From Candidatus Latescibacterota bacterium (lineage in GTDB: Bacteria > Krumholzibacteriota > Krumholzibacteriia > WVZY01 > JAKEHA01): 64,000 bases of DNA. The notes under the pieces were generated by a model that was given only the letters and a program-made list of their open reading frames with translations, searched no databases and was not told the DNA's origin. The stretch covers positions 320,001 through 384,000 of the forward strand of contig OY970173.1 of assembly GCA_963707635.1 (NCBI GenBank), in the 5' to 3' direction. Both the position numbers and the translations under genes were made by a program. Positions 45,944 through 63,972 of the stretch are shown here, one piece after another (the stretch's first letter is position 1; each line of letters starts with the position of its first letter).

Positions 45944-46501
45944 TCAACGGATCGACTTGATCTCGTCGACTACCCAGCGCTCCTGGTCGTCGTCGTGCTC
46001 GAGATGGAGGGACACGTACACCTTTTCGGTGAACAGCCGGCCGTCGTCGGTCTTTCGATACTGGCGTTCCGCGATCGCGAAGGTGTCGCGGCCCTCGTCG
46101 CCCGGCTTGCGGTACTGCACGAACTCGAACTTCTTGGTGGCGGTGTAGCGGAAGAGATCCTTGAGGAGGTAGTAGCTCTGGTTGCGGGAAAAGGTTCCCC
46201 CCGACGGTCCGGTGCCGCTGATCGAGATCGCGACCTTCTGCGACCCGAAGTGGCGGAGAATGAGGTCGACATTACGTGTGTTCCAGCCGCGCTCGATGTC
46301 CGCGAAGACGTCCATCGGTCCCCCCGACGGCGGCGGTTCCTTCTGGGCGACGACGCCGGTGGGCTCCGGCGTCTGCGCCACCACCTCGCCGTGCCCGGCC
46401 TTCGCCGGGCGGGCCGCGGCGCCGGCGAGCCCCCCCCCGAAGACCACGAGTGAGCCCGCCAGCACGAGCATCGAAACAACTATGCGAGGGCCGGTGGCCA
46501 T
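45944..46501 (-). CDS. Exported DUF4783/NTF2-like protein
   Basis: Signal peptide; IERGW...ILRHFG..KVAISI...GTFSRNQSYYLLKDLF...WVVDEI pattern. Confidence 0.65.
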   Translation of the reverse strand: MATGPRIVVSMLVLAGSLVVFGGGLAGAAARPAKAGHGEVVAQTPEPTGVVAQKEPPPSGGPMDVFADIERGWNTRNVDLILRHFGSQKVAISISGTGPSGGTFSRNQSYYLLKDLFRYTATKKFEFVQYRKPGDEGRDTFAIAERQYRKTDDGRLFTEKVYVSLHLEHDDDQERWVVDEIKSIR

Positions 46502-47662: not shown

Positions 47663-49349
<1,687 letters not shown>

Positions 49350-50300: not shown

Positions 50301-51548
50301 CTAGCGCGTGTGCGTGCGCGTGCGCGTGCTGTCGTGCGACGCCACGTGCACGATGTCGCACACCGTGACCAGCTCGACGCCCGCGGTCTCGAGATAGTCC
50401 AGGTTGTCGCGGAGCGCTTCGAACGTCCACGGGTGCGGGTGGCCGATGCCGATCGCGTGGCCGCGGGTGCGCGCGGTCTCGACCAGGGTGTGCAGCCGCG
50501 AGGCGACGTCGTCCTGGCGGTCGGTGTGGTCGTCGAGAAACATGGTGTTCGACGCCGCGCGAAGCCCCGCCGCGACCGCCGTATTATAGGCGACGGATTT
50601 CGGCGAAGTCAAAGAATCGAGGAAGAAAAGGCCTCTCCCTTCGAGCGCGCCCATCACCGCCCCCATCACGCGCGCGTCGGCGGTGGCGACGGATCCCATG
50701 TGGTTGTTGACCCCGTCGACGCCGGGAAGGCTCTCCAGGTAGGCCCGGACGAACGAGGCGATCTCGTCGTCGCTCATCGTGTTGGTGATGGGCTCGACGT
50801 CGTTGTTGCGCGGGTCCGAGCCCTCCATCGGAAGGTGGAGCAGCACGCAGCGGTGGGATTTCTTCGCCAGGGCGAGGACGTCGTGCGAGTGACGGAGTCC
50901 GGGAAGGATGGCGACCGTGAGCGGCATGTCGAGGTCCAGCACCTCGCGCGGGATGCCGCCGTCGGAGTAGCCGAAGTCGTCGATCACGATGGCGACTTTG
51001 GGCAGACGCTCGGTGGGCGGAATGGCCGCCTGCAACTCCGACGCCGAGAGGCGGCGCAACGTGAGCCGGTGCGTGTCCGTTGTATGAGTGCCGACCTGGA
51101 ACACCAACGTACGCCCATGGTCGAACTGCTCGCTCTCGCGAACTTCGGCGCCGAGCGCCTCAATCGCTTCGGTCAACGAGACGTTGACGCGGAGAAAGTC
51201 CGTGGAGTCGTCGCAGGCAATGCTCCACTCGATGGGCGTGCCGGGCGGTCGTGACGATGAGGGGACGGCGGCGCCTTCGGCGCGGATGCGCTTTCGAAGT
51301 CCGTGCGCCTCGAGCGCGCGCTTGAGCGCGATCCCAACTTCGCGCTGGACGCGCGCGTACGGCTCCTCGAACCCGTGGTCGACCAGGAAGACCCCGCCGC
51401 GTGTGCTCTGGAGAAACTTGACCCCGGCCGCACCTCCCACCCCGAGGAGGATCATCGATACGATCAGCAGCTTGACCGACCGCGGCACGCGGGAGGGTTT
51501 CTCGTCGGTGGTCCGGGACCTGGACCTGGGTTTGTTCTTGGGCGGCAT
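50301..51548 (-). CDS. Divergent polysaccharide deacetylase family protein (YibQ-like), membrane anchored
   Basis: VAIVIDDFG, LLHLPME, GVNNHMGS, FFLDSLT, FLD, AIGIGHP. Confidence 0.92.
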   Translation of the reverse strand: MPPKNKPRSRSRTTDEKPSRVPRSVKLLIVSMILLGVGGAAGVKFLQSTRGGVFLVDHGFEEPYARVQREVGIALKRALEAHGLRKRIRAEGAAVPSSSRPPGTPIEWSIACDDSTDFLRVNVSLTEAIEALGAEVRESEQFDHGRTLVFQVGTHTTDTHRLTLRRLSASELQAAIPPTERLPKVAIVIDDFGYSDGGIPREVLDLDMPLTVAILPGLRHSHDVLALAKKSHRCVLLHLPMEGSDPRNNDVEPITNTMSDDEIASFVRAYLESLPGVDGVNNHMGSVATADARVMGAVMGALEGRGLFFLDSLTSPKSVAYNTAVAAGLRAASNTMFLDDHTDRQDDVASRLHTLVETARTRGHAIGIGHPHPWTFEALRDNLDYLETAGVELVTVCDIVHVASHDSTRTRTHTR

Positions 51549-51616: not shown

Positions 51617-52261
51617 CTACAGGTACAGTGACTTGATGCCACCCCAGGTCGGACCCGGCACGTCGTTGGCTGCTTTGGCCGACGTGTATCCCAGATCCCG
51701 CCACTCCACCAGACGCCATTGTGGCGCGTCGTCGGTTCCGACATTGCGCACCGTGAACTGCGTCTGCGAGCCTGGCACAGCGATGTACGTCATGTCCGGC
51801 ACCATCTCGAAGGTGAACTCATAGTAGACCGTGGTCGTGTACCATTTCTCGCCGGGGAAGTTGAGGGGCTCCACCTCGACCCACACCACACCGCTCTCGA
51901 ACTTCAGGTCCATGCGAATCGAGCGACAGGTGGGATAGGGCGGCTGATTGAGGCTCTTGTCGAACAGCATGGACGCCATGCGCAACTCGTCGGCGCGGCC
52001 CCATTGAGCGGGGATGCTCCCGCCGACGTCTCCCGGCGAAAAGAAGAAGGTGAAGTTAGGATCCAGGAGCTCGTCATACGGGGAATACTGCTGGAGCGTG
52101 TACGACAGCTCGAGATTATTCAGGACATGTTCGCGCGTGGTGAGTGGTTGGATCTTCTTTCCAGGCGGCGGACACGGGTCGCACCCGCCGACCACTTCTT
52201 CATCTCCGCAGGCCGGAAGGAGCGCAATGGCGACGAGCAACGAAACCAGGACAGTTCTCAC
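51617..52261 (-). CDS. Lipoprotein, tandem array member 3 (one domain plus TWGGIKSLY tail)
   Basis: GTG start; LLPA-C lipobox; domain LNNLELSY...FTFFFSPGDVGG...SIRMDLKFESGV...WRLVEWRDL. Confidence 0.85.
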   Translation of the reverse strand: MRTVLVSLLVAIALLPACGDEEVVGGCDPCPPPGKKIQPLTTREHVLNNLELSYTLQQYSPYDELLDPNFTFFFSPGDVGGSIPAQWGRADELRMASMLFDKSLNQPPYPTCRSIRMDLKFESGVVWVEVEPLNFPGEKWYTTTVYYEFTFEMVPDMTYIAVPGSQTQFTVRNVGTDDAPQWRLVEWRDLGYTSAKAANDVPGPTWGGIKSLYL

Positions 52262-52272
52262 GTTGCATCCCC

Positions 52273-53460
52273 CTACTTGTAGAGCGCCTTGACGCCGCCC
52301 CAGGTTGTGCTCTCTGTGCCAATAGCGGCTTGCGCCGTCGCCGAGCTTCCCAGATCCCTCCACTCCACCAGGCTCCATTGTGGCGCACTGTCGGTTCCGT
52401 CGTTGCGCACCGTGAACTGCGCGAGTGCCCCGGGAACTTCGGAATACGTCTGATCCGGAACCATCTCGAACGTGAAGTCGTAGAGCACGGTCGCCGTATG
52501 CCAGGTCTCTCCTGGGAAGTCCTCGGGGATCACCGCGACCCACTGGACCCCGCTTTCGAGTTTCAGGTCCATGCGGATATAGCGGCACGTGGGATAAGGC
52601 GGCTCATTGAGGTTTTGGTCGAACAACTTCAATGTCACGCGCAACTCGTTGTCACGGCCCCACTGCTCGGGGATGTTCCCGCCGACATCACCGGGAGCGA
52701 AAAAGAACGTGAAGTTGTCGTCGAGCAGCTCGCCGAATCTCGTGGCGTTCCTCCGGTTGTACGAAGCCTCGAGATCGGCCAGGACTTCCTCGCGCGGGAA
52801 TACGGCTCCGACATACATCGCCTTGATCTGGCCCCAGCTGGCCGATTCCGTGGAAGCGGGGCTCTGCAGGGCCGCGGAGCCTCCCGACAAATCTCTCCAC
52901 GCCACCAGCCGCCACTGCGGCGCGTCGTCGGTCCCCACATTGCGTACTGTGATCTGCGCTCGCGTGCCGGGCACGGCGATGTACGTACCGTCCGGTGCTA
53001 TCTCCATGGTGAACTCGTAGTACACGGTCGTCGTGTGCCACGTCTCGGTCGGATAGGCAGGCGGGATGGTGTCCGTCCAGGACACACCGCTCTCGAACTT
53101 CAGGTCCATGCGGATCGAGCGCCACACGGGAACGCCGGGGGTATTGAGATACGGATCAAACAGCATCGTCGTGACGGATGTCTCTTCGACGCTTCCCCAG
53201 TGCGTCGGGACAGCACCGCGAACATCTCCCGGAGCGAAGTAGAATATGAAGTCGGGGTCGAGCAGCGAGTCGAATTGGGCAATAGCACGCTCGTTGTACG
53301 ACAACTCGAGGTTATTCAGGACGTGTTCGCGCTCGGTGAGGGGTTGGAACGTCTTCGGGGGAGGGCATGGGTCGCACCCGCCGACCACTTCCTCATCTCC
53401 GCAGGCCAGAAACAACAAGGCGCCGGCCATCAGTGCGGCCAGGCACCATCGAACGTTCAT
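52273..53460 (-). CDS. Lipoprotein, tandem array member 2 (two domains, internal and terminal WGxxK motifs)
   Basis: ATG 53460; LFLA-C lipobox; two domain copies; internal SWGQIKAMY and terminal TWGGVKALYK. Confidence 0.85.
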   Translation of the reverse strand: MNVRWCLAALMAGALLFLACGDEEVVGGCDPCPPPKTFQPLTEREHVLNNLELSYNERAIAQFDSLLDPDFIFYFAPGDVRGAVPTHWGSVEETSVTTMLFDPYLNTPGVPVWRSIRMDLKFESGVSWTDTIPPAYPTETWHTTTVYYEFTMEIAPDGTYIAVPGTRAQITVRNVGTDDAPQWRLVAWRDLSGGSAALQSPASTESASWGQIKAMYVGAVFPREEVLADLEASYNRRNATRFGELLDDNFTFFFAPGDVGGNIPEQWGRDNELRVTLKLFDQNLNEPPYPTCRYIRMDLKLESGVQWVAVIPEDFPGETWHTATVLYDFTFEMVPDQTYSEVPGALAQFTVRNDGTDSAPQWSLVEWRDLGSSATAQAAIGTESTTWGGVKALYK

Positions 53461-53472
53461 TCCTATCTCCCG

Positions 53473-53508
53473 AAAAGCGAAAGAGGCACCGGCCTCGCCG
53501 GTGCCTCT
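53473..53508 (-). terminator. Intrinsic terminator after array member 1
   Basis: Minus strand agaggcaccgg-cgagg-ccggtgcctct followed by ttcgctttt. Confidence 0.7.
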
Positions 53509-53521
53509 CGAAGAAGGGCTG

Positions 53522-54124
53522 CTAGTTACTCCCGGCGAGATCTCGCCACTCGACCAGTTTGTACAGCGGATCGGCGGCGGTTCCGGTATTGCGCACCGTG
53601 AACTGCGCCTGCGAACCGGGCACGGCGATAAGGTCATGTCCGGATTCATCTCGAACGTGAATTCGTAGTACACGGTCGTCGTGTACCACGTCTCGGTGGG
53701 ATAGTCCTCGGGGATCACGTCGACCCACTGCACCCCGCTCTCGAACTTCAGATCCATGCGGATCGAGCGGCAGGTGGGATACGGCGGCTCGTTGAGGCTC
53801 TTGTCGAAGAGCTTGGAGGCCACGCGCAACTCGTCGAGCGCGCCCCCACTGGTCGGGAATGTTTCCGCCCACGTCTCCCGGCGAAAAGAAGAACGTGAAG
53901 TTCGGATCCAGGAGGTCGTCGTACGGGGAATACTTCTGCGTCGAGTACGCCACTTCGAGATTATTGAGAACGGCCTCCCGGGTGGTAAGAGGCATGATTG
54001 TCTTTACTTCTATAGGCTCGGGGGGAATATCGTCCTTGGGCTTCTCATCGGGGTTCAAAAAACACGACGATGTGCTCATGACCAGCACGATCGACCACAA
54101 TACCGACAGGTTTCTCCTACACAT
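53522..54124 (-). CDS. Lipoprotein, tandem array member 1; compensating indels near 53838 and 53630
   Basis: MCRRNLSVLWSIVLVMSTSS-C; same domain as members 2 and 3, with the middle part (DELRVASKLFDK...NPDMT) in another frame. Confidence 0.8.
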   Translation of the reverse strand: MCRRNLSVLWSIVLVMSTSSCFLNPDEKPKDDIPPEPIEVKTIMPLTTREAVLNNLEVAYSTQKYSPYDDLLDPNFTFFFSPGDVGGNIPDQWGRARRVARGLQALRQEPQRAAVSHLPLDPHGSEVRERGAVGRRDPRGLSHRDVVHDDRVLRIHVRDESGHDLIAVPGSQAQFTVRNTGTAADPLYKLVEWRDLAGSN

Positions 54125-54169
54125 CGCCAACTGTCCTTTCCGCGAAGAGCCGCGCTGAAAAGCCATTGT

Positions 54170-54199
54170 ATGATACCACGCATTGCAGTCTAAGGTCAA
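54170..54199 (-). promoter_or_regulatory. Possible sigma70-type promoter for the lipoprotein array
   Basis: Minus strand TTGACC-N18-TATCAT in an AT-richer spacer. Confidence 0.45.
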
Positions 54200-54256
54200 G
54201 AACTTGAATGGGTTACCCCATATCCTCCATGAGTGTGTACATGTCTCCTGCTTCCT

Positions 54257-54859
54257 CTAGGGGTTGAGTCGTAACCTCAAGATTCCCTTAAGGAATCCCC
54301 ACGTCGAAAATCCGGCCACGGTCTCCACTTCATTCCAGAAGGTCACCCGCCAGTTGCCGCCCTCGTTGCGCACATCGAACTCGGCCACGCCCGCGTAGTG
54401 GGTCGTGTCGGTCGGGCTGGCGGCCGGGATCACGTCCAGCGTGTAGTCCACGCGGTAACGCACGAACGTGTTCTTGTTGATGAGCACGCTCGGGGTGAAG
54501 CTGACGTTGATCTTCTGCGCGTCGGACAGAAGCAACCGCACCACATCCATTTCGACCGGCTTGGTCCAGTTGTCGTACACCCCGGTTCCGATGAAATTCT
54601 GATCGAGCGAATCGGTCAGCGTCGGCGAAAACACGAAATTCGCACTGATGGCTCGTTCGTAGTTTGCATCCTGCTTGCATTCCTCCAGCGATTTCTCGAT
54701 CGCCACGAAGGCTTGCACCGGCGTATCCAGCGAAACCACCGGGCAGTCGGAACCCGTAATTGGCTCCTGGGCGTCGCGCGTATCGAACTGGCACGCCGGC
54801 GTTTGCAACAGCATTGCGTACGTTAGCATCCACGTCAGAATTCTCCGGGCCGCCTTCAT
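54257..54859 (-). CDS. Lipoprotein, probable distant relative of the tandem array domain
   Basis: MKAARR...QTPA-CQFDTRDAQEP; NFVFSP...W...E...WRVTFWNE...STWGFLK; ATG 54859. Confidence 0.75.
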   Translation of the reverse strand: MKAARRILTWMLTYAMLLQTPACQFDTRDAQEPITGSDCPVVSLDTPVQAFVAIEKSLEECKQDANYERAISANFVFSPTLTDSLDQNFIGTGVYDNWTKPVEMDVVRLLLSDAQKINVSFTPSVLINKNTFVRYRVDYTLDVIPAASPTDTTHYAGVAEFDVRNEGGNWRVTFWNEVETVAGFSTWGFLKGILRLRLNP

Positions 54860-54861
54860 CG

Positions 54862-56832
54862 CTAGAATGGGTACGAAAACTCCGAACGGGCGTCCCAGTA
54901 GTTCTTCTCTGCTTCCGCGCCAAACGGGCTGAACCGCTTCACCCGCGCCACCGTGAACGAGAGCTTGCGGCCGCTCCCCCAGTCGTAGTCTCCCATCGTC
55001 CCCACCCGGATCTGGCCGTCGGTCGTGACCGTCTTCGTGTCCGACGCAAGAAAACGATTCTCGAAACGGCTGTAGAGATTCTCGCCGAACACCTTCACGC
55101 GCGGGTTGACCCGGTAATCCACCCGGATGTTGGTACGGTCCCGGCGGTCTTCCGACTGCACGTCGAGCAGATCCTCCCCGGTCGCCGGATCCGGCAGGTA
55201 CGAACCCGTGTCGTGCAGGTAGAGCGCGTATTCGAACTTGAAGTCGATGTCTCTCATCGGCCTGAACAGGAATGTGTTCGTAAAGGTGAGGTTTCGGTCG
55301 AGGTAATTGTCCGTCGACTTGTAGGTGTAATCGGTGAACTCGATCGCGAGGCCGTAGCTCTGGGTGATGGTGAGCCACTGATTCATCGTGTACGTGAAAC
55401 CCGGTCGTAACTCGTAGAGGCTGCGCGTGCGGTTGTTACCCGATTCGCTGGCATCGATGTTGATGAACTCGGACCCCGAGTACGCGACGTTGATCGTCGC
55501 CACAATCGGCTTGAACGGTGTCGACGACAGGCGCAGATTCACGCTGGAGTCCACCTGATCGCGATCGCGTGGGTTCGCCTCGTAGTCGAGATAGAACGAC
55601 TGCAAAAGCTGGGTCGACCCGTTGAGGTCCACAGTGAGCGTCGGAGTGAACTGGTGGGAGATCCCCAGCCGGACGAGCTTGCGCTTGTCGGTCAGGCTGC
55701 TCACCGACTGCGGTCCGAGGTCGCGGAGCGTCGAGTTTCCTTCGAACGACACGGTCGCCCTGGATTTCCATGGCAGCTGATAGTCGATCGTGCCGGTGAA
55801 CCCGTCGGAGGTGGTGTTGCTGAATCGTTCTTTCTGGATCGCGTAGTCGAACACGTCCTCGGCGTGGTTCGCGCTCAAGTTGAGGCCGAATTTCAACGGA
55901 AGCCGGGACGTCAGGGTAAGCGTCGTGTTGCGCACATCGTGGAACTCGGTCTCTTCGAACACGTTCTCCGCCCCTTCGAGCTGGCCCCCGAGCGACCCGC
56001 GAGCCTGGTCGGTGAAAACACGGTCGGCGTGATAGTCCACGTAGTCCGCGGCAAAGCGGATGCTGTCCGAAAATGCCACGCGGGCGCTCGCCGAAAGCGA
56101 GTCCTCCGAGGCGCCCAGCCCGTGGAACGTCGAATCGGCCGTGGTCGAGCGCTGGTCGGATGCGCCGGTTCCCGTTCGTCCCACCAACAACAAGCGGTGG
56201 TCCAGGGCCTCAAAGGCAACGCCGCCGAATACGCCTCCCGCGAGCGTCTGGTCGGTCTTGAAGGTGCGCTCGCCGTTGACCACGCTCCCTTTCACGGTGG
56301 CATCCATCCGCACGTCCCCGAATCTCTGCACGTATCCGACATTGCTCGACAGCGAGAGGTCATTCACGATGAAATCCTGGACCCCGCCGCCGACGGCGAT
56401 CGAGCGGTTGAACACCCGGTTGTCCGCGTAGGTCACGGTCCCGATCAGGTCGGGTCGAAACGTCTGTGACAGGCTGGCCGACATGCGCTTGTTATCTTCG
56501 AGCCGATTCTGCAACCGGTAGTTCTTCTTGTCCCCGCTCAACACGAAGGTGAACGAGCTTTTCCATGGCAGCCGTATGAAGGTTCTCAATTCGTTGGCCA
56601 TGCCCACGCTCGACACGTCACCGGTGATCCGGTTCGAAAACGTCGGTGAAAACACGTAGCGCGGTGTGAACTTGATCAGTGAATCCGTCGCGGCACTGGT
56701 GATGGCTGTGAGCGCAGAGTCCGCCGGCACATTGCCACTCACCTGCGCGCGGACCGAAGCGGCGAACGCGCCGAGACCGAGCGTCGCCGTCACCGTCAAC
56801 AACACCCGCCGTGTCAAACGCATGGAGTCCAT
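54862..56832 (-). CDS. Outer-membrane beta-barrel protein, function unknown
   Basis: Signal peptide (ASVRA-Q); alternating S/T/N/Y/F-rich beta strands; C-terminal EFSYPF beta-signal. Confidence 0.75.
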   Translation of the reverse strand: MDSMRLTRRVLLTVTATLGLGAFAASVRAQVSGNVPADSALTAITSAATDSLIKFTPRYVFSPTFSNRITGDVSSVGMANELRTFIRLPWKSSFTFVLSGDKKNYRLQNRLEDNKRMSASLSQTFRPDLIGTVTYADNRVFNRSIAVGGGVQDFIVNDLSLSSNVGYVQRFGDVRMDATVKGSVVNGERTFKTDQTLAGGVFGGVAFEALDHRLLLVGRTGTGASDQRSTTADSTFHGLGASEDSLSASARVAFSDSIRFAADYVDYHADRVFTDQARGSLGGQLEGAENVFEETEFHDVRNTTLTLTSRLPLKFGLNLSANHAEDVFDYAIQKERFSNTTSDGFTGTIDYQLPWKSRATVSFEGNSTLRDLGPQSVSSLTDKRKLVRLGISHQFTPTLTVDLNGSTQLLQSFYLDYEANPRDRDQVDSSVNLRLSSTPFKPIVATINVAYSGSEFINIDASESGNNRTRSLYELRPGFTYTMNQWLTITQSYGLAIEFTDYTYKSTDNYLDRNLTFTNTFLFRPMRDIDFKFEYALYLHDTGSYLPDPATGEDLLDVQSEDRRDRTNIRVDYRVNPRVKVFGENLYSRFENRFLASDTKTVTTDGQIRVGTMGDYDWGSGRKLSFTVARVKRFSPFGAEAEKNYWDARSEFSYPF

Positions 56833-56850: not shown

Positions 56851-57729
56851 TCACACGCGCGCCGCGCTCACCCGTTGCGCGAGCGCGATGAACTGTTCCT
56901 TCGCCAGCGCCTCGGGGCGCGCCTGCAGGTCGACCCCCGCCTCGTCGGCAATCTTGGTCAGCGTCTCTTCCGGCAGCGGGTAGAATGCGCGCAGGGTGTT
57001 GTGGATGGTTTTTCGCCGCTGCTGGAACAGATTCTTGACCAGAGCGAGAAAGGGTTCGACCTCGTCGCCCGAAATGAGCGGCCGCGCCAGCGGAAAGAAG
57101 GCCAGGACGATCGACGCCACCTGGGGCCTCGGAAAGAACGACCCCGCTGCAACCTTCGTGACAACGCGGATGTCGTAGAGACTCTGGAGCACGACGCTCG
57201 GAATCCCGTAGACCCGGCTCCCGGGCGGGGAAACCACCCGCTCGCCCACTTCGCGCTGCATCATGATCACCGCGCGCGACACCTCGCTGCGCGCGTCGAC
57301 CAGAAAGTCGAAGAGCACGTTGCGGGTGAGGTAGTACGGAATGTTTCCGATCAACACGCACCGTTCATATCCCCTTTGGCGCAGGAGGTCGCGCAGCGTC
57401 ACGGTCGTGAAATCGACGCTCACGATCTCGATCCGTTCACGCGCGGCGCTCCCGGCGCCCAGTTTCAGGTCGAATTCCGCGCCCAGCTCCGCGACCAGGT
57501 CGCGGTCCAGCTCGAGCGCGAGGAGCCGGGGTCCGCGCTCCGCGATGAGCTTCGTCAGGACCCCGTGCCCGGGGCCCAGCTCCACCACGACATCGTCGGG
57601 CCCCAACGCGGCGGCGGCGACGATCCTCGCGGCAATGCCGCGGTCGTGGAGAAAGTTCTGGCCGAAGCGCTTGCGGGGGCGAAACCGGCCCTGATTCAAT
57701 TGGCTACTCGTTGTCGAAGGTACGCGCAA
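56851..57729 (-). CDS. rsmA: 16S rRNA (adenine1518/1519-N6)-dimethyltransferase
   Basis: KRFGQNFL, VELGPGHGVLT, ELDRDL, GNIPYY, MQREV, FFPRPQV, FQQRRKT; start uncertain. Confidence 0.96.
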   Translation of the reverse strand: MRVPSTTSSQLNQGRFRPRKRFGQNFLHDRGIAARIVAAAALGPDDVVVELGPGHGVLTKLIAERGPRLLALELDRDLVAELGAEFDLKLGAGSAARERIEIVSVDFTTVTLRDLLRQRGYERCVLIGNIPYYLTRNVLFDFLVDARSEVSRAVIMMQREVGERVVSPPGSRVYGIPSVVLQSLYDIRVVTKVAAGSFFPRPQVASIVLAFFPLARPLISGDEVEPFLALVKNLFQQRRKTIHNTLRAFYPLPEETLTKIADEAGVDLQARPEALAKEQFIALAQRVSAARV

Positions 57730-57952: not shown

Positions 57953-58681
57953 ATGGTCAACGATCGACCCCACGCTGCGTTTTCGATTGCTTCCACTCAC
58001 CGCCTGCCACTGACAGGTGAGTTTCACCCGCTGCGCCGGGAGTTCGAACGATGGCTGGCGACGGGCAACCTCATCACGCTGTTGCTTGCGATCTCGATCT
58101 TCTCGATCTGGTATTTCGGGCGGGAGATCCCGGTCACCGAGGTCACGCTTTTCCACCCGCGGGTGATCGACGTCAGCAAGGTGCCGGTGCCGCCGCCCAC
58201 TCCAGGCGGGCCGCCCGTTAACTACCGGACAACCGTTCCGCCGAAGAACTTCTATCCGGAGCCGGTCGAGGATCCGGACACGAACGCCACCATCCCCACA
58301 CAGGATGACCTTCGTAGTTGGGGACCGGGGCCCGACGAGGTGGTGAACCCGGGCGACATCATCATTGTTCCAGAACCGGAGGCGCCGGGAACTGCGTACC
58401 AGGTGTTCGACGAACTCCCCGTTCTCATTAGCGTCGAGCCGCCGGTCTATCCCCAGATCGTGCGCGATGCCGGCATCGACGGGACCGTCGAGGTGCAGGT
58501 GCTCATCGGGCGAAACGGCCGTGTGAAGGAGGCCCGCGCCGTGAGCGGCAGCGACGTGCTCCACGCCGCCGCGGTCGCCTCGGCGCGTACGGCGGTGTTC
58601 AAACCGGCACTCCAGGGTACCCGCCCGGTCGAGGTCCTGATCGTGATTCCGGTCGTGTTCCAGCTCCAGGGTGGCCACTAG
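57953..58681 (+). CDS. tonB: Energy transducer TonB family protein
   Basis: Single TM helix, Pro-rich linker, TonB_C (PVYPQIVRDAGIDGTVEVQVLIGRNGRV...FKPA..GTRPV...IPVVF). Confidence 0.88.
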   Translation: MVNDRPHAAFSIASTHRLPLTGEFHPLRREFERWLATGNLITLLLAISIFSIWYFGREIPVTEVTLFHPRVIDVSKVPVPPPTPGGPPVNYRTTVPPKNFYPEPVEDPDTNATIPTQDDLRSWGPGPDEVVNPGDIIIVPEPEAPGTAYQVFDELPVLISVEPPVYPQIVRDAGIDGTVEVQVLIGRNGRVKEARAVSGSDVLHAAAVASARTAVFKPALQGTRPVEVLIVIPVVFQLQGGH

Positions 58682-58754
58682 GTTCGCGGCCTCGCAGAGG
58701 CAGCGTGTGGTGGTATACTCCTCGGGCCGTCGTCCCCGGAACAAGGAGGCCATT

Positions 58755-59819
58755 GTGAATCTCAAGTCTGTCGTGATCGGAGCCGGCGCGATCTGCCTGC
58801 TCGCGGGCGCAGTAAGCGCCGACGTCCGCTGGAGCGATGAAACCTACGCGCAGGTTCTCACCCGCGCGAGAGCGGAGAAGAAGTACGTCTTCATCGACTT
58901 CTACGCCACCTGGTGCGGGCCGTGCAAACGGCTCGACGAGTCGACATACCCCGACGCGAAGGCGAGCGAGCTGCTGAACTCCATGATCGCGGTCAAGTGG
59001 GACGCGGAGAAGGATCCGTGGCTCGCGACCGCGAAGCAATACAAGGTGCACGCCTACCCGTCGCTGATCGTGCTCGATCCGAACGGCGTGGAAGTCGACC
59101 GCCACCTGGGGTATCTGCCTCCCGAAGAATTCGTCGCCACCATCGACGGATTCCGCAACGGCGTCGGCACGACGGCCGCCCTCGCCGCGCAATTGAGCAA
59201 GTCGCCCAACGATGCGGATCTGCTCTATCAGATCGGCATGAAGTACGCGGACTCGGGGCGCTCCGATGAAGCCACCGACGTTCTCACCCGGGCGATGTCG
59301 CTCGACCCCAAGGACGCGAAGGGTCGAAACGCGGAGATGCTCTACGCGCTTGGCGCCGCCCACTATAACAACGACCAGTTCGCAGAAGCGAAGCCCTACT
59401 TCGAACGGCTCACGAACGAATACGCGACCTCGGACTGGTACGAAGACGGCATGCATCGACTGGCCGGCACCGAGTACAAGCTCGGCAACAAGGACGCGGC
59501 CGTCGCCACCTACTGGAAGTCGACCGAGAAGAAGCAGGACGATGCGAACGCCTTGAACGGTTTCGCGTGGTTCTGCGCGCAGCGGAAGATCGGCCTGGAC
59601 AAGGCCCTGCCCGCGGCGCAGAAGGCCGCCGACCTCTCGGGCCGCGACCCGGGCATCCTCGACACGCTGGCGGAGGTCTATTTCGCGAAGGGCGACTTCG
59701 ACAACGCGATCAAGGTGGGCGAAGAGGCCCTCGCGAAGAAGCCGGACGACGTCTATTACAAGGACCAGGTCGCGAAGTTCAAGAAGGCGAAGGCGGACGC
59801 GGACCAGGCGAGACGGTAA
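58755..59819 (+). CDS. Exported thioredoxin-fold protein with C-terminal TPRs
   Basis: AAGGAGG then GTG; signal peptide; IDFYATWCGPCK; AYPSL cis-Pro; TPRs (LNGFAW, ILDTLAEVY). Confidence 0.9.
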   Translation: MNLKSVVIGAGAICLLAGAVSADVRWSDETYAQVLTRARAEKKYVFIDFYATWCGPCKRLDESTYPDAKASELLNSMIAVKWDAEKDPWLATAKQYKVHAYPSLIVLDPNGVEVDRHLGYLPPEEFVATIDGFRNGVGTTAALAAQLSKSPNDADLLYQIGMKYADSGRSDEATDVLTRAMSLDPKDAKGRNAEMLYALGAAHYNNDQFAEAKPYFERLTNEYATSDWYEDGMHRLAGTEYKLGNKDAAVATYWKSTEKKQDDANALNGFAWFCAQRKIGLDKALPAAQKAADLSGRDPGILDTLAEVYFAKGDFDNAIKVGEEALAKKPDDVYYKDQVAKFKKAKADADQARR

Positions 59820-61147: not shown

Positions 61148-62413
61148 TCACGATCGATACATGCGAATATCGTAGGTCGCGCCCAGCTCGCGCGCGAGGA
61201 CTCGGGCCGGTTCGGCGTCGAAGCCCGGCTGCGCGATGAACTCGCACACCGTCCGGATGCCGGACGCCGTGGAGCAGCGCACGAAGTCGCGCATCGATTC
61301 CCAGCCTTCCTTGCCCATCTTCGGAAACGCCAGGCTGTCGTGCTGCTCCGCGGTCACACCGAACCACGGCACCACCATCTCGTCCACCACTCCCGCCAGT
61401 TCTTTGGTAACGTCGCGCCCCGCCGCGTGATTCGCAAGCCCGGGCGTGTGCAACCGCACACGCCACCCCAGTTCCTTCGCGCGGGCAGCCATGGCAACTG
61501 CCCGCTCCATGTTGGAGAGCGGGTCGACCAGTCCGGCGATGACCGCTTCCTCCACCGTGTCGGCGGGGAACGCATCCAAGTCGGCGGGCAGCGCCGAAGC
61601 GGAGTGAATATAGACGGTGTCGTCGATCCTGTAAACCGGCCGGGGCAGAGACTCCGCGGTCAGGCCCATCGCCGCCAGGTAGTTTTCCGTGGTGGCCTGG
61701 TCCACCTCCGCCGGCGACAGCGCCTTCGCGTTCGCGACCGCGCGCAGCACGTGGGCGACAAACGACGGTTCGTTGCGCTTGCCGCGCCACGGATGCGGAG
61801 TCAGATACGGCGAATCGGTCTCCAGCACGATCTTCTCGAGGGGGAGGCTGGCCACCGTCTCGAACAGTCGCGCGTTCTGGTAGGTGATGACCCCGCCGAT
61901 GCCCACGTGGAACCCCAGCTCGAAAATCCGCCGCGCCTCGGCCTCCCCGGCCGAGAAGGCGTGGAAGATGCCTCGGTAGCTTCCGCCCTCCGTCGTCAGC
62001 ACGTCGATGACTTCGTTGAAGGAATCGCGGCAGTGGATGACGATGGGCTTGTTCTCCGCGCGCGCCAGGCGAATCATGCGCCGGAATACCTCGGTTTGTA
62101 CCTCGCGTGGCGCCACGTCGCGATAGAAGTCGAGCCCGATCTCGCCCACCGCGACCACGCGCGGGTGCTGGAGCGCGCCGCGGACCTCGCCCTCGAGCGC
62201 ATCGTCGAGGGCGGCCGCATCATGCGGGTGCACGCCGGCCGCACCGAACATGAACGGAAAGCGCTCGAGCAGCTCGAGCGTGTTACGCAGCGACTCCCGG
62301 TCGTAGCCGATGTTCATGAACGCCGCCACGCCGTCCGAGATCGCGTTGGCCATGACGCTCTCGCGATCGTCGTCGAAGTGCGGAAGATTGAGATGACAGT
62401 GTGAATCGATCAT
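61148..62413 (-). CDS. tatD: TatD family hydrolase fused to a degenerate radical-SAM-like domain
   Basis: IDSHCHL, GVHPH, VGEIGLDFY, IHCRD, FHAFS, ETDSPYL, RGKRNEP; extra C-terminal domain of about 160 aa. Confidence 0.9.
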   Translation of the reverse strand: MIDSHCHLNLPHFDDDRESVMANAISDGVAAFMNIGYDRESLRNTLELLERFPFMFGAAGVHPHDAAALDDALEGEVRGALQHPRVVAVGEIGLDFYRDVAPREVQTEVFRRMIRLARAENKPIVIHCRDSFNEVIDVLTTEGGSYRGIFHAFSAGEAEARRIFELGFHVGIGGVITYQNARLFETVASLPLEKIVLETDSPYLTPHPWRGKRNEPSFVAHVLRAVANAKALSPAEVDQATTENYLAAMGLTAESLPRPVYRIDDTVYIHSASALPADLDAFPADTVEEAVIAGLVDPLSNMERAVAMAARAKELGWRVRLHTPGLANHAAGRDVTKELAGVVDEMVVPWFGVTAEQHDSLAFPKMGKEGWESMRDFVRCSTASGIRTVCEFIAQPGFDAEPARVLARELGATYDIRMYRS

Positions 62414-62422
62414 AGGTTGTTT

Positions 62423-63972
62423 CTAGGACGCCGGCATTTCGAGCCGGGGGAACAGAACGACCGGCTCGCCGATCCGCGTCCACGCGGGGTCGCCGGCTCG
62501 GCCCGCTTCATCGAGCGACAGCTTGCCGAAGTCCCGGGCGAGCGCCAACTGGGCCCGCATTTCCGCTGCCTTTTCCGGCATGAACGGCTGGCACATGAGC
62601 GAACACGCGCGCAGCACTTCCAGCAAAGCGCGCAGCGTCGCGCCGAGCGCCGCGGTGTCCTTCGCCTTGGCGAGCACCCACGGCTTCTTTTCTTCGACGA
62701 AGCGATTCGCCCCTGTCACCGCGCGCCACATCGCCGCCAGCGCGCGGTCGAACTCGAGCCGGTCCATGTGCCGGTGATAGTCGGCGACCACGCCCTCGAG
62801 CAGCCGCGCGGCGTCGCGCTGCGCCGCCTCGGTCCACGCCGGCACTTCGCCGCCGAAGTAGCGATTCGTCATCGACAGCGTGCGCGAGAACAGGTTGCCC
62901 AGCTCGTTCGCCAGCTCGGCATTGTAGCGCGTTACGAACAGTTCTACGGTGAAATCTCCGTCGCGATCGAAGGCGATCTCGCGCAGCAGCAGGTAGCGCA
63001 GCGCGTCCGCCCCGAAGAATCGGGCCAGGTCCTCCGGATCGACGATGTTGCCGATGGTCTTGCTCATCTTCTCGCCGCGATTGTACACGAAGCCGTGGCC
63101 GAAGATGCTCCTCGGCAGCGGGACCTCGGCGGCCATCAACATCGCCGGCCAGATGAGGCAGTGGAAGCGCGTGATGTCCTTGCCGATCACGTGGACGTCG
63201 CACGGCCAGTACCTGTCGAACTTGCCGTCCCGGCGCCGCGATTGCCGTCGTCCTCGCCGTATCCCAGCGCCGATATATAATTGATAAGGGCATCGAACCA
63301 GACGTACACCACCTGGTCGGCCGCGATCGGGAGCGGCACGCCCCAGGTCCGGCCCGCGCGCGAGACGCTCACGTCGTCCAGGCCCGATTCGATCACGTTC
63401 AAGATTTCGTTTTTCCTGATCTCGGGGCGCACGAAGTCCGGATTGGCGAGAATGTGGGCCTTCAGGCGGTCGGCGAACTTCGAGAGCGCAAAGAAGTAGT
63501 TGGTCTCCTCGATGTAACGCGGCACCGTGTGGTGGCGCGGGCACTTGCCGTCTACCAGGTCCTTGTCGACCTTGAACTCCTCGCACCCGTCGCAGTAGAG
63601 GCCGGCGTACTTCCCCTCGAAGATGAAGCCGCGCTCGTGGATCCGTTTGAAGAGGTGCGCCACCGCGCGCTTGTGCACCGGGTCGGTGGTGCGGATGAAC
63701 TGGTCGTACGAAATGTGGAGCGACTTCCAGGTCCGTTCGAATACCACCGCCATCTCGTCGGTATAGGCCTGCGGATCCTTGCCCAGGGCGCGGGCTTCTC
63801 GTTCGACGTTGGTCGAATGCTCGTCCGTCCCCATCAGGAAGTAGGTGTCGAAGCCGGCGAGCCGTTTGTAGCGCGCCAGGCAGTCGGCGCCGATCTTCTC
63901 GTACGCGGTGCCCAGGTGCGGCCGCGCGTTGACGTAGTCAATGGCGGTCGTGACGTAGTAAGTTTTCTTCAT
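62423..63972 (-). CDS. metG: Methionyl-tRNA synthetase (short form); apparent frameshift near 63230
   Basis: YYVTTAIDYVN..PHLG, GTDEH, FIRTT, YVWFDALINY, then in the next frame IGKDITRFH, KMSKT, DALRY, LANELGNL. Confidence 0.97.

What the first reader, a model, noticed from the sequence alone, without database searches (positions are those of the whole stretch)
51617..56832. Beta-barrel gene plus tandem mosaic lipoprotein array: a candidate undescribed surface system
Seen in sequence: rsmA, a 656-aa beta-barrel gene and a lipoprotein gene are followed by three more lipoprotein genes carrying four copies of a ~150-aa domain (LNNLE.SY / FTFFF.PGDV.G.IP.QWG / SIRMDLKFESGV.W / W.TTTVYYEFTFEM / QFTVRN.GT / W.LVEWRDL). 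The copies are mosaics. Members 2 and 3 share CGDEEVVGGCDPCPPP almost base for base. Members 1 and 3 share YSPYD.LLDPNFTFFFSPGDVGG. Members 1, 3 and 2b share LN.PPYPTCR, where 2a has LNTPGVPVWR. Inference: recent amplification with segmental gene conversion of a surface or periplasmic NTF2-like binding domain, possibly partnering the barrel. An orphan tonB is divergently transcribed next door.
Basis: partly seen in the sequence, partly recalled or inferred. Interest (0 to 1): 0.7.

Follow-up and report, generated by a model that had tools for sequence, protein, structure and literature searches.

The report
Likely reader of an orphan protein tag
A very wide outer-membrane barrel and two small membrane-anchored partner proteins, conserved across several little-studied bacterial groups, likely form the missing machine that recognises a ten-residue address tag found on dozens of secreted proteins, and the extra gene copies seen here are tag-carrying duplicates of one partner.

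Summary
The genes are real, but the array is the variable edge of a conserved system. Core: rsmA, a predicted 28-stranded plugless barrel (B), and two homologous NTF2-fold lipoproteins, L0 and L1. B is found in 145 of 151 genomes of this phylum (Krumholzibacteria names on homologues). The extra domains (L2a, L2b, L3) are lineage-level duplicates of L1 that each end in TWGxxKxLY; L1 never does. That tag ends 43 ORFs in this genome, 41 unrelated to L. In 301 Bacteroidota genomes the tag occurs only with this module (97 of 109 module genomes, 0 of 128 SprA-positive genomes without it). Some homologues carry the tag inside a loop instead. Best reading: B-L0-L1 likely binds the tag and exports or displays small tagged proteins; binding was not tested. 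It is not LptD, SprA, PorV or a TonB receptor, and tonB is not conserved beside it. Mosaicism is partly supported; 'recent' is overstated (65-80% DNA identity). L1 carries two compensating frameshifts, likely assembly errors. This scan noted the trio and the tag before, separately, on other DNA; I saw no note or paper linking them.

The parts
56851..57729 (-). rsmA/ksgA, first gene of the run; conserved upstream neighbour of the barrel in this phylum
   Evidence: TIGR00755 218 bits over cut-off; upstream of B in 25 of 25 distant loci
54862..56832 (-). B: outer-membrane beta-barrel, 656 aa, predicted 28 strands, no plug or periplasmic domain; single copy
   Evidence: AlphaFold2 pLDDT 88, 28 strands from residue 61 to 652; no Pfam/NCBIfam family; 145 of 151 phylum genomes; 103 of 301 Bacteroidota genomes
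54257..54859 (-). L0: NTF2-like lipoprotein with its own conserved C-terminal TW[GS]xL[RK]G/A helix
   Evidence: alignment A7; homology to L1; 1421 clusters at 50% identity; 108 of 301 Bacteroidota genomes
54260..54304 (-). L0 built-in tag-like helix TWGFLKG...
   Evidence: sequence; conserved in A7 and A14; weak profile match to the cargo tag, E 0.006
53522..54124 (-). L1: tail-less NTF2-like lipoprotein, core member; two compensating frameshifts here (near 53842 and 53630), likely assembly errors
   Evidence: tail-less gene follows L0 in 27 of 28 own-order loci and 24 of 25 distant loci
52273..53460 (-). L2: lipoprotein with two L1-type domains (2a, 2b), each followed by a tag
52813..52839 (-). 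internal tag after domain 2a (SWGQIKAMY); the only internal occurrence in the genome
52276..52305 (-). C-terminal tag of L2 (TWGGVKALYK)
51617..52261 (-). L3: lipoprotein, one L1-type domain plus tag; NTF2 fold
   Evidence: AlphaFold2 pLDDT 88, tag helix 207-214 in blocks of 81 and 93 behind a linker block of 67; Z 13.8, rmsd 2.1 over 122 residues to 3rob
51620..51649 (-). C-terminal tag of L3 (TWGGIKSLYL)
50301..51548 (-). divergent polysaccharide deacetylase (YibQ-like), conserved downstream neighbour; boundary of the variable array
   Evidence: PF04748 221 bits; follows the L genes in 23 of 25 distant loci
57953..58681 (+). tonB-like gene; neighbour only, not part of the system
   Evidence: PF03544; beside rsmA in only 2 of 33 other barrel loci

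Best explanation
The barrel B and the lipoproteins L0 and L1 form a conserved single-copy envelope module that likely recognises the C-terminal TWGxxKx[LM][YF]R tag and likely moves or holds small tagged proteins at the outer membrane; the extra genes here are duplicates of L1 that carry the tag themselves. Proposed steps: (1) clients cross the inner membrane on Sec signal peptides (seen by a crude heuristic on 36 of 43 tagged ORFs); (2) the tag folds as a short helix and docks in a groove of the NTF2 domain (inferred): L0 carries its own version in cis, L1 has none and would take it in trans; (3) the plugless 28-stranded barrel, which would need its lumen filled, takes one small folded client, which then plugs it, is displayed or is released (inferred). 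In Ignavibacteria-like and Rhodothermales genomes there is one client, a ~120-aa Ig/Fn3-like protein; in this phylum there are dozens. L2 and L3 would be self-complemented or themselves routed clients; their number (0-3 extra domains) varies by duplication with some gene conversion. Shown: gene order, folds, tag distribution, co-occurrence. Not shown: any binding, topology, transport.
For: Synteny: rsmA-B-L0 in 25 of 25 distant loci, L1 next in 24 of 25; B-L0-L1 in 27 of 28 own-order loci, the other cut by a contig end. One-tag-per-domain pattern: C-terminal on extra copies, absent from core L1, inserted in the loop after helix 3 in five homologues that have no C-terminal tag (G027, G028, G029, G032, G033, plus a weaker sixth in G023), variant on L0. 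AlphaFold places L3's tag helix at high confidence behind a low-confidence linker. Tag is real: 43 C-terminal hits against 0 of 12203 internal controls (the matrix was built from these hits); 138 of 151 phylum genomes, 1408 matches against 3 for the reversed pattern. Co-occurrence where the genes are unlinked: of 301 Bacteroidota genomes, tag 97, L0 108, B 103, SprA 237; L0 and B together in 102; all 97 tag genomes have L0 or B; 0 of 128 SprA-positive genomes lacking both have the tag. The tag stands where a type IX CTD stands: the Bacteroidota client domain weakly matches (E 0.004-0.09) domains that precede a CTD-like end in 3 proteins of G278, and tagged passengers in G000 match two proteins with FlgD-type ends. 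Tagged ORFs are small (median 239 aa, 2 of 43 over 450) against FlgD-CTD ORFs (median 638, 81 of 107 over 450), as expected of a narrower conduit.
Against: The Bacteroidota co-occurrence may reflect one or a few shared losses along the tree; no taxonomy was given for those handles, so the genomes are not independent. All 109 module-positive genomes and G000 also have SprA, so the conduit could be SprA rather than B. 12 of 109 module genomes in Bacteroidota, and 13 of 151 genomes of this phylum (6 of 10 in family f6), have no strict-pattern tag; the pattern misses variants (a G039 copy ends ...WSTLKALY). L0's helix may be a plain structural element, and its match to the tag is weak. B is not next to L0 in any of 13 Bacteroidota L0 loci, two of them short. 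No homologue of the Bacteroidota client was found in G000 with one query.
Confidence: 0.45

Rival explanations
1. The module reads the tag but as an accessory branch of the type IX system: clients pass through SprA, and B with L0/L1 acts as a shuttle or surface anchor, as PorV and PorP/SprF do for type A and B CTDs, possibly with a PorU-like C25 enzyme.
Against: B is 28-stranded, about twice a PorV/SprF barrel (14 strands, recalled), and matches neither family; the tag is a 10-residue helix, not an Ig-fold CTD; 128 SprA-positive genomes lack both module and tag; B-L0-L1 lies in a housekeeping operon, away from sprA and porV.
Confidence: 0.25
2. B-L0-L1 is a housekeeping envelope complex (lipid, glycan or lipoprotein handling) whose fourth fixed subunit is the single tagged Ig-like protein; the many tagged proteins of this phylum merely borrow the docking helix, or the tag is read by something else and co-occurs by ancestry.
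For: Single copy, in an operon with rsmA, a YibQ-like deacetylase, pdxJ and secDF; only one tagged protein per Bacteroidota genome (96 of 97 have one match); module genomes without a strict tag exist; barrel-plus-lipoprotein anatomy recalls LptDE.
Against: A separate LptD exists; the tag moves between dozens of unrelated passengers (Pfam named only 9 of 38, of several kinds); loop-inserted tags and tail-less L1 point to a peptide-binding site on the L domain.
Confidence: 0.2
3. One reading: a recently amplified, conversion-shuffled array of ligand-binding lipoproteins feeding a TonB-energised or MtrB-like barrel.
For: Copy number varies 0-3 within the genus; copies cluster by lineage; conversion-like patches; best Foldseek hit is MtrB (6r2q_B, TM 0.46).
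Against: No plug domain; tonB not conserved; no haem-binding CxxCH motif in L0-L3; most of the phylum has only L0 and L1; the model ignores the tag.
Confidence: 0.1

Closest known systems
Type IX secretion CTD/shuttle pairs (type A CTD-PorV; type B CTD-PorP/SprF; PMC12618676, 12 passages read)
   Same: Sec signal peptide plus C-terminal sorting signal on unrelated passengers; an outer-membrane barrel as putative reader; FCB distribution; always with SprA in the genomes tested
   Different: signal is a ~10-residue helix, not an Ig-fold domain; barrel has 28 predicted strands and no PorV/PorP family match; two NTF2 lipoproteins have no counterpart in the passages read; present in only 109 of 237 SprA-positive Bacteroidota genomes
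LptD-LptE (recalled; 26-stranded barrel plugged by a lipoprotein)
   Same: very wide barrel with lipoprotein partners, near rsmA
   Different: no N-terminal jelly-roll; partners are NTF2-fold; a separate LptD is in the genome
MtrB-MtrA (PDB 6r2q, top Foldseek hit)
   Same: similar length (649 aa), plugless barrel whose lumen is filled by a separate protein
   Different: TM 0.46, rmsd 12.8, 10% identity; no multihaem cytochrome in the locus; no MtrB/PioB family match
NTF2-like / SnoaL / DUF4440 proteins
   Same: fold (Z 13.8; weak DUF4440 hits in 13 of 112 members)
   Different: lipid-anchored, paired, with a tag helix; no catalytic role known or tested
PEP-CTERM and other short C-terminal sorting signals (recalled)
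   Same: short portable tail on small CHRD, lamin-tail and cupredoxin-type passengers
   Different: no transmembrane helix or basic cluster; candidate reader is a barrel-lipoprotein module, not a sortase

Membership tests
T9SS type A CTD / PorV | Ig-fold C-terminal domain on the cargo | tested here: not met
   tag is about 10 conserved residues; no CTD family on 38 tagged proteins scanned in Pfam
T9SS type A CTD / PorV | reader barrel belongs to the PorV family | tested here: not met
   NF033709 matches 10 places elsewhere in G000, none at B; B has no NCBIfam match
T9SS (system level) | SprA translocon in the same genome | tested here: met
   109 of 109 module-positive Bacteroidota genomes
T9SS (system level) | cargo secretion depends on SprA and the GldLM/PorLM motor | not testable with these tools
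   needs mutants
LptD/LptE | N-terminal jelly-roll domain ahead of the barrel | tested here: not met
   model has only a disordered stretch before strand 1 at residue 61
LptD/LptE | is the genome's LptD | tested here: not met
   PF19838 matches another gene at 1007029-1008099
TonB-dependent receptor / SusCD | N-terminal plug domain in a 22-stranded barrel | tested here: not met
   28 strands, no plug; no plug or TonB-receptor family match
MtrB/PioB | adjacent multihaem cytochrome partner | tested here: not met
   no CxxCH in L0-L3; neighbours are rsmA and lipoproteins in all loci
MtrB/PioB | structural homology to MtrB | tested here: inconclusive
   top Foldseek hit but TM 0.46; Z 17.0 at rmsd 11.0, tied with unrelated barrels
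NTF2-like superfamily (L0-L3) | cone-shaped alpha+beta fold | tested here: met
   L3 model: Z 13.8, rmsd 2.1, 122 residues; L0 by profile homology
NTF2-like superfamily (L0-L3) | ligand or catalytic pocket | not tested
PEP-CTERM-type sorting signals | C-terminal transmembrane helix plus basic residues | tested here: not met
   tag alignment has no hydrophobic stretch of membrane length

The most novel reading that the evidence does not exclude
B-L0-L1 is a stand-alone, previously unnamed protein export/display system of the FCB group: a 28-stranded barrel gated by a pair of NTF2-fold lipoproteins that capture a ten-residue C-terminal helix by peptide complementation, with one client in Ignavibacteria and Rhodothermia and dozens in Krumholzibacteriota; tagged L-domain copies could chain head-to-tail by helix exchange.
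Probability: 0.35. Interest if true: 0.92.

Novelty: categorically new. Interest (0 to 1): 0.78.

Why it matters
It names concrete candidate machinery for an address tag that ends dozens of secreted proteins per genome and had no known reader, and it moves the question from uncultured bacteria to groups with cultured members (Rhodothermia, Ignavibacteria; that such cultures exist is recalled), where there is a single tagged protein and three single-copy genes to test. A 28-stranded barrel with NTF2-fold lipoprotein partners matches no solved structure well. A ten-residue export or display tag would be far shorter than a type IX CTD and useful as a tool.

Tried and rejected
Pfam, NCBIfam and PDB-sequence searches of B and L gave no family over cut-off. 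Fold searches of B returned only generic barrels; none stood out. ESM Atlas: unnamed Bacteroidota clusters at 0.97 and BBP2_2 barrels at 0.94, with recognition 2010, below the tool's threshold, so a lead only. Plasmid search with L0: no match. Sequencing runs: no RNA holder listed; four DNA runs laid as contigs covered the stretch only in pieces, none spanning the array, so they neither confirm copy order nor resolve the +1 frameshift. Alignment-based scans of the species-genome collection could not be run for lack of conserved words; a single-protein scan reached Rhodothermales and two other Bacteroidota. A looser tag pattern in Bacteroidota was noisy (many control hits) and was replaced by a strict one (3 control hits). 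The Fisher test is not used as evidence because kin are not independent. Paper searches found nothing on the module or tag: 0 papers; listings and abstract starts only, none on this system; subscription journals are not covered and no supplements were read. tonB, LptD, TonB-receptor and MtrB readings rejected as in Membership tests. In the tree one L0 row (G015_L040_2651) was included by mistake and sits on a long branch; tail labels there come from a loose regex and two are doubtful.
Full report
Observation. The minus strand carries rsmA (56851-57729), a 656-aa gene B (54862-56832), lipoprotein L0 (54257-54859), then L1 (53522-54124), L2 (52273-53460, two domains) and L3 (51617-52261), followed by a YibQ-like deacetylase, pdxJ, secD and secF. 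L1 has a +1 near 53842 and a -1 near 53630; a public contig supplies the missing base at the second site, relatives are intact, and secD is split in this assembly but whole in relatives, so both are likely long-read errors. No further copy of B or the L domain exists in the 3.2-Mb single-contig genome. Homologues that carry a name are mostly Candidatus Krumholzibacteria.

Folds. AlphaFold2 gives B 28 strands with nothing before strand 1 but a signal peptide and a disordered stretch (pLDDT 88, pTM 0.73). The best structural matches are generic: MtrB at TM 0.46, and Z about 17 at rmsd 9-11 shared by unrelated barrels. L3 is an NTF2-like domain (Z 13.8, rmsd 2.1). L0 is a distant paralogue of L1 (99.3%). 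The genome has its own LptD, SprA, PorV-family barrels, 107 FlgD-type CTD matches and six C25 genes elsewhere, so B is none of these.

Core versus variable part. B is found in 37 of 41 relatives and 145 of 151 phylum genomes, almost always once; the L domain in 37 of 41. B-L0-L1 are adjacent in 27 of 28 own-order loci, the other ending at a contig edge (part was cut from view and read). In 25 loci of other orders rsmA-B-L0 is seen in all, L1 next in 24, the deacetylase in 23 (my notebook's '25/25' was too broad). The core L1 always stops right after the last strand. Extra domains, 0 to 3, occur in this genus; most carry a tail. tonB lies beside rsmA in only 2 of 33 other loci.

History of the array. 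Core DNA identity among the four copies is 65-80%. In a 70-row tree, copies from one lineage group with that lineage's tail-less L1 (G005 100/98, G021 100/99, contig 17872 99/97), while G000's L1 and L3 each pair with an orthologue in a close relative. This fits repeated duplication of L1 with later exchange. Patchy identity (uncorrected p 0.0002-0.014 for 4 of 6 pairs with a mismatch penalty, 2 of 6 without; informative-site clustering p 0.007) and the 37-of-39-nt N-terminal block shared by L2 and L3 support some conversion, but these tests ignore selection. The array is older than strain level.

The tag. L2a, L2b and L3 end in [ST]WGxxKx[LM]Y. A scan of all 22670 ORFs of 70 aa or more finds 43 with this C-terminal motif, none in 12203 internal control windows, and one internal occurrence, that of L2a. 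41 of the 43 are unrelated to L; Pfam names 9 of 38 scanned (CHRD, lamin-tail, cupredoxin, DUF7450 and others). 36 of 43 look Sec-exported by a crude heuristic. They are small (median 239 aa stop to stop, against 638 for FlgD-CTD ORFs). The motif is found in 138 of 151 phylum genomes, 1408 matches against 3 for the reversed pattern.

Link between tag and module. First, an L domain appears to carry at most one tag: at the C-terminus (extra copies), inserted in the loop after helix 3 in five homologues with no C-terminal tag and more weakly in a sixth, as a variant on L0, or not at all (core L1). The L3 model puts the tag helix at high confidence behind a low-confidence linker. Second, the module extends to Bacteroidota: L0 has 1421 clusters at 50% identity, with members named Latescibacterota and Bacteroidetes. 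L0-L1 are tandem in 11 of 13 Rhodothermales and other Bacteroidota loci (one cut by a contig end, one without a detected L1), next to rsmA in 2, while B lies elsewhere (B homology 86%, E 5e-6). Each of five such genomes has one ~120-aa Ig/Fn3-like protein ending TWGS[IL]KA[ML]F[RQ], whose domain weakly resembles those preceding a type IX CTD-like end. Third, over 301 Bacteroidota genomes: tag 97, L0 108, B 103, SprA 237; 102 have both L0 and B; all 97 tag genomes have L0 or B; none of the 128 SprA-positive genomes lacking both has the tag; 12 of 109 module genomes lack the strict tag. The tag tracks the module, not type IX secretion as such, though these genomes are not independent and all module genomes have SprA.

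Mechanism. Most likely (0.45) the lipoprotein pair holds the tag helix and B takes the small client, which plugs, passes or is displayed. Close rival (0.25): same reader, but clients pass through SprA and the module acts like the cognate shuttles described for type B CTDs (PMC12618676, 12 of 36 passages read). Binding, sidedness and transport are inferred; no complex model could be obtained.

Novelty. No curated family covers B, L0, L1 or the tag. Seven paper searches found no description (open-access full text only, no supplements). Earlier notes of this scan describe the trio in another genome (e1-934614) and the tag several times with its reader unknown; I stated the link before seeing them, and none of the notes shown makes it. 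Verdict: real, conserved, undescribed module; interest 0.78.

Noticed in passing
window 47663-49349 and 62423-63972: secD and metG are each split over two frames; secD is one 570-630 aa frame in relatives. Frameshifts also appear in B, L0 or L1 of G012 and G013, assemblies of 5-10 contigs: a long-read error pattern.
   Followed up: partly
L144:6982-7407, L145-L148, L155: Single-copy ~120-aa Ig/Fn3-like secreted protein with the tag in Ignavibacteria-like and Rhodothermales genomes; no Pfam family; candidate plug or sole client of the barrel.
   Followed up: partly
L060:5960-7498, L101:610-2157, L102:517-2127, L103:648-2171: ~510-aa lipoproteins with two extra N-terminal domains fused to an L domain that has the tag inserted in a loop.
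   Followed up: partly
P0112, P0117, P0123, P0125, P0130; L034, L035-L037, L040: Multi-domain proteins of repeating L-domain-plus-tag units, like L2; P0184 and L034 end in a doubled tag.
   Followed up: no
window 45944-46501: Another conserved secreted NTF2-like protein (weak DUF4783 hit) downstream of secF in most own-order loci.
   Followed up: no
window 57953-59819: tonB-like gene and a thioredoxin-TPR gene on the plus strand are a variable insertion between rsmA and the NAD-dependent epimerase; present in some relatives only.
   Followed up: partly
window 61148-62413: TatD with a ~160-aa C-terminal extension in this family; plain ~255-aa TatD in the sister family.
   Followed up: no
G000:C1:904280-907127, 1186413-1189628, 2729778-2732102, 3131056-3132272: Tagged cargo genes also occur as small tandem paralogue arrays, so tandem amplification is a general habit of tagged genes here, not special to L.
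   Followed up: no
window 50305-50325: Short (GT/GC) dinucleotide-like run at the 3' end of the deacetylase gene, giving an RTRTHTR tail; possible slippage site.
   Followed up: no
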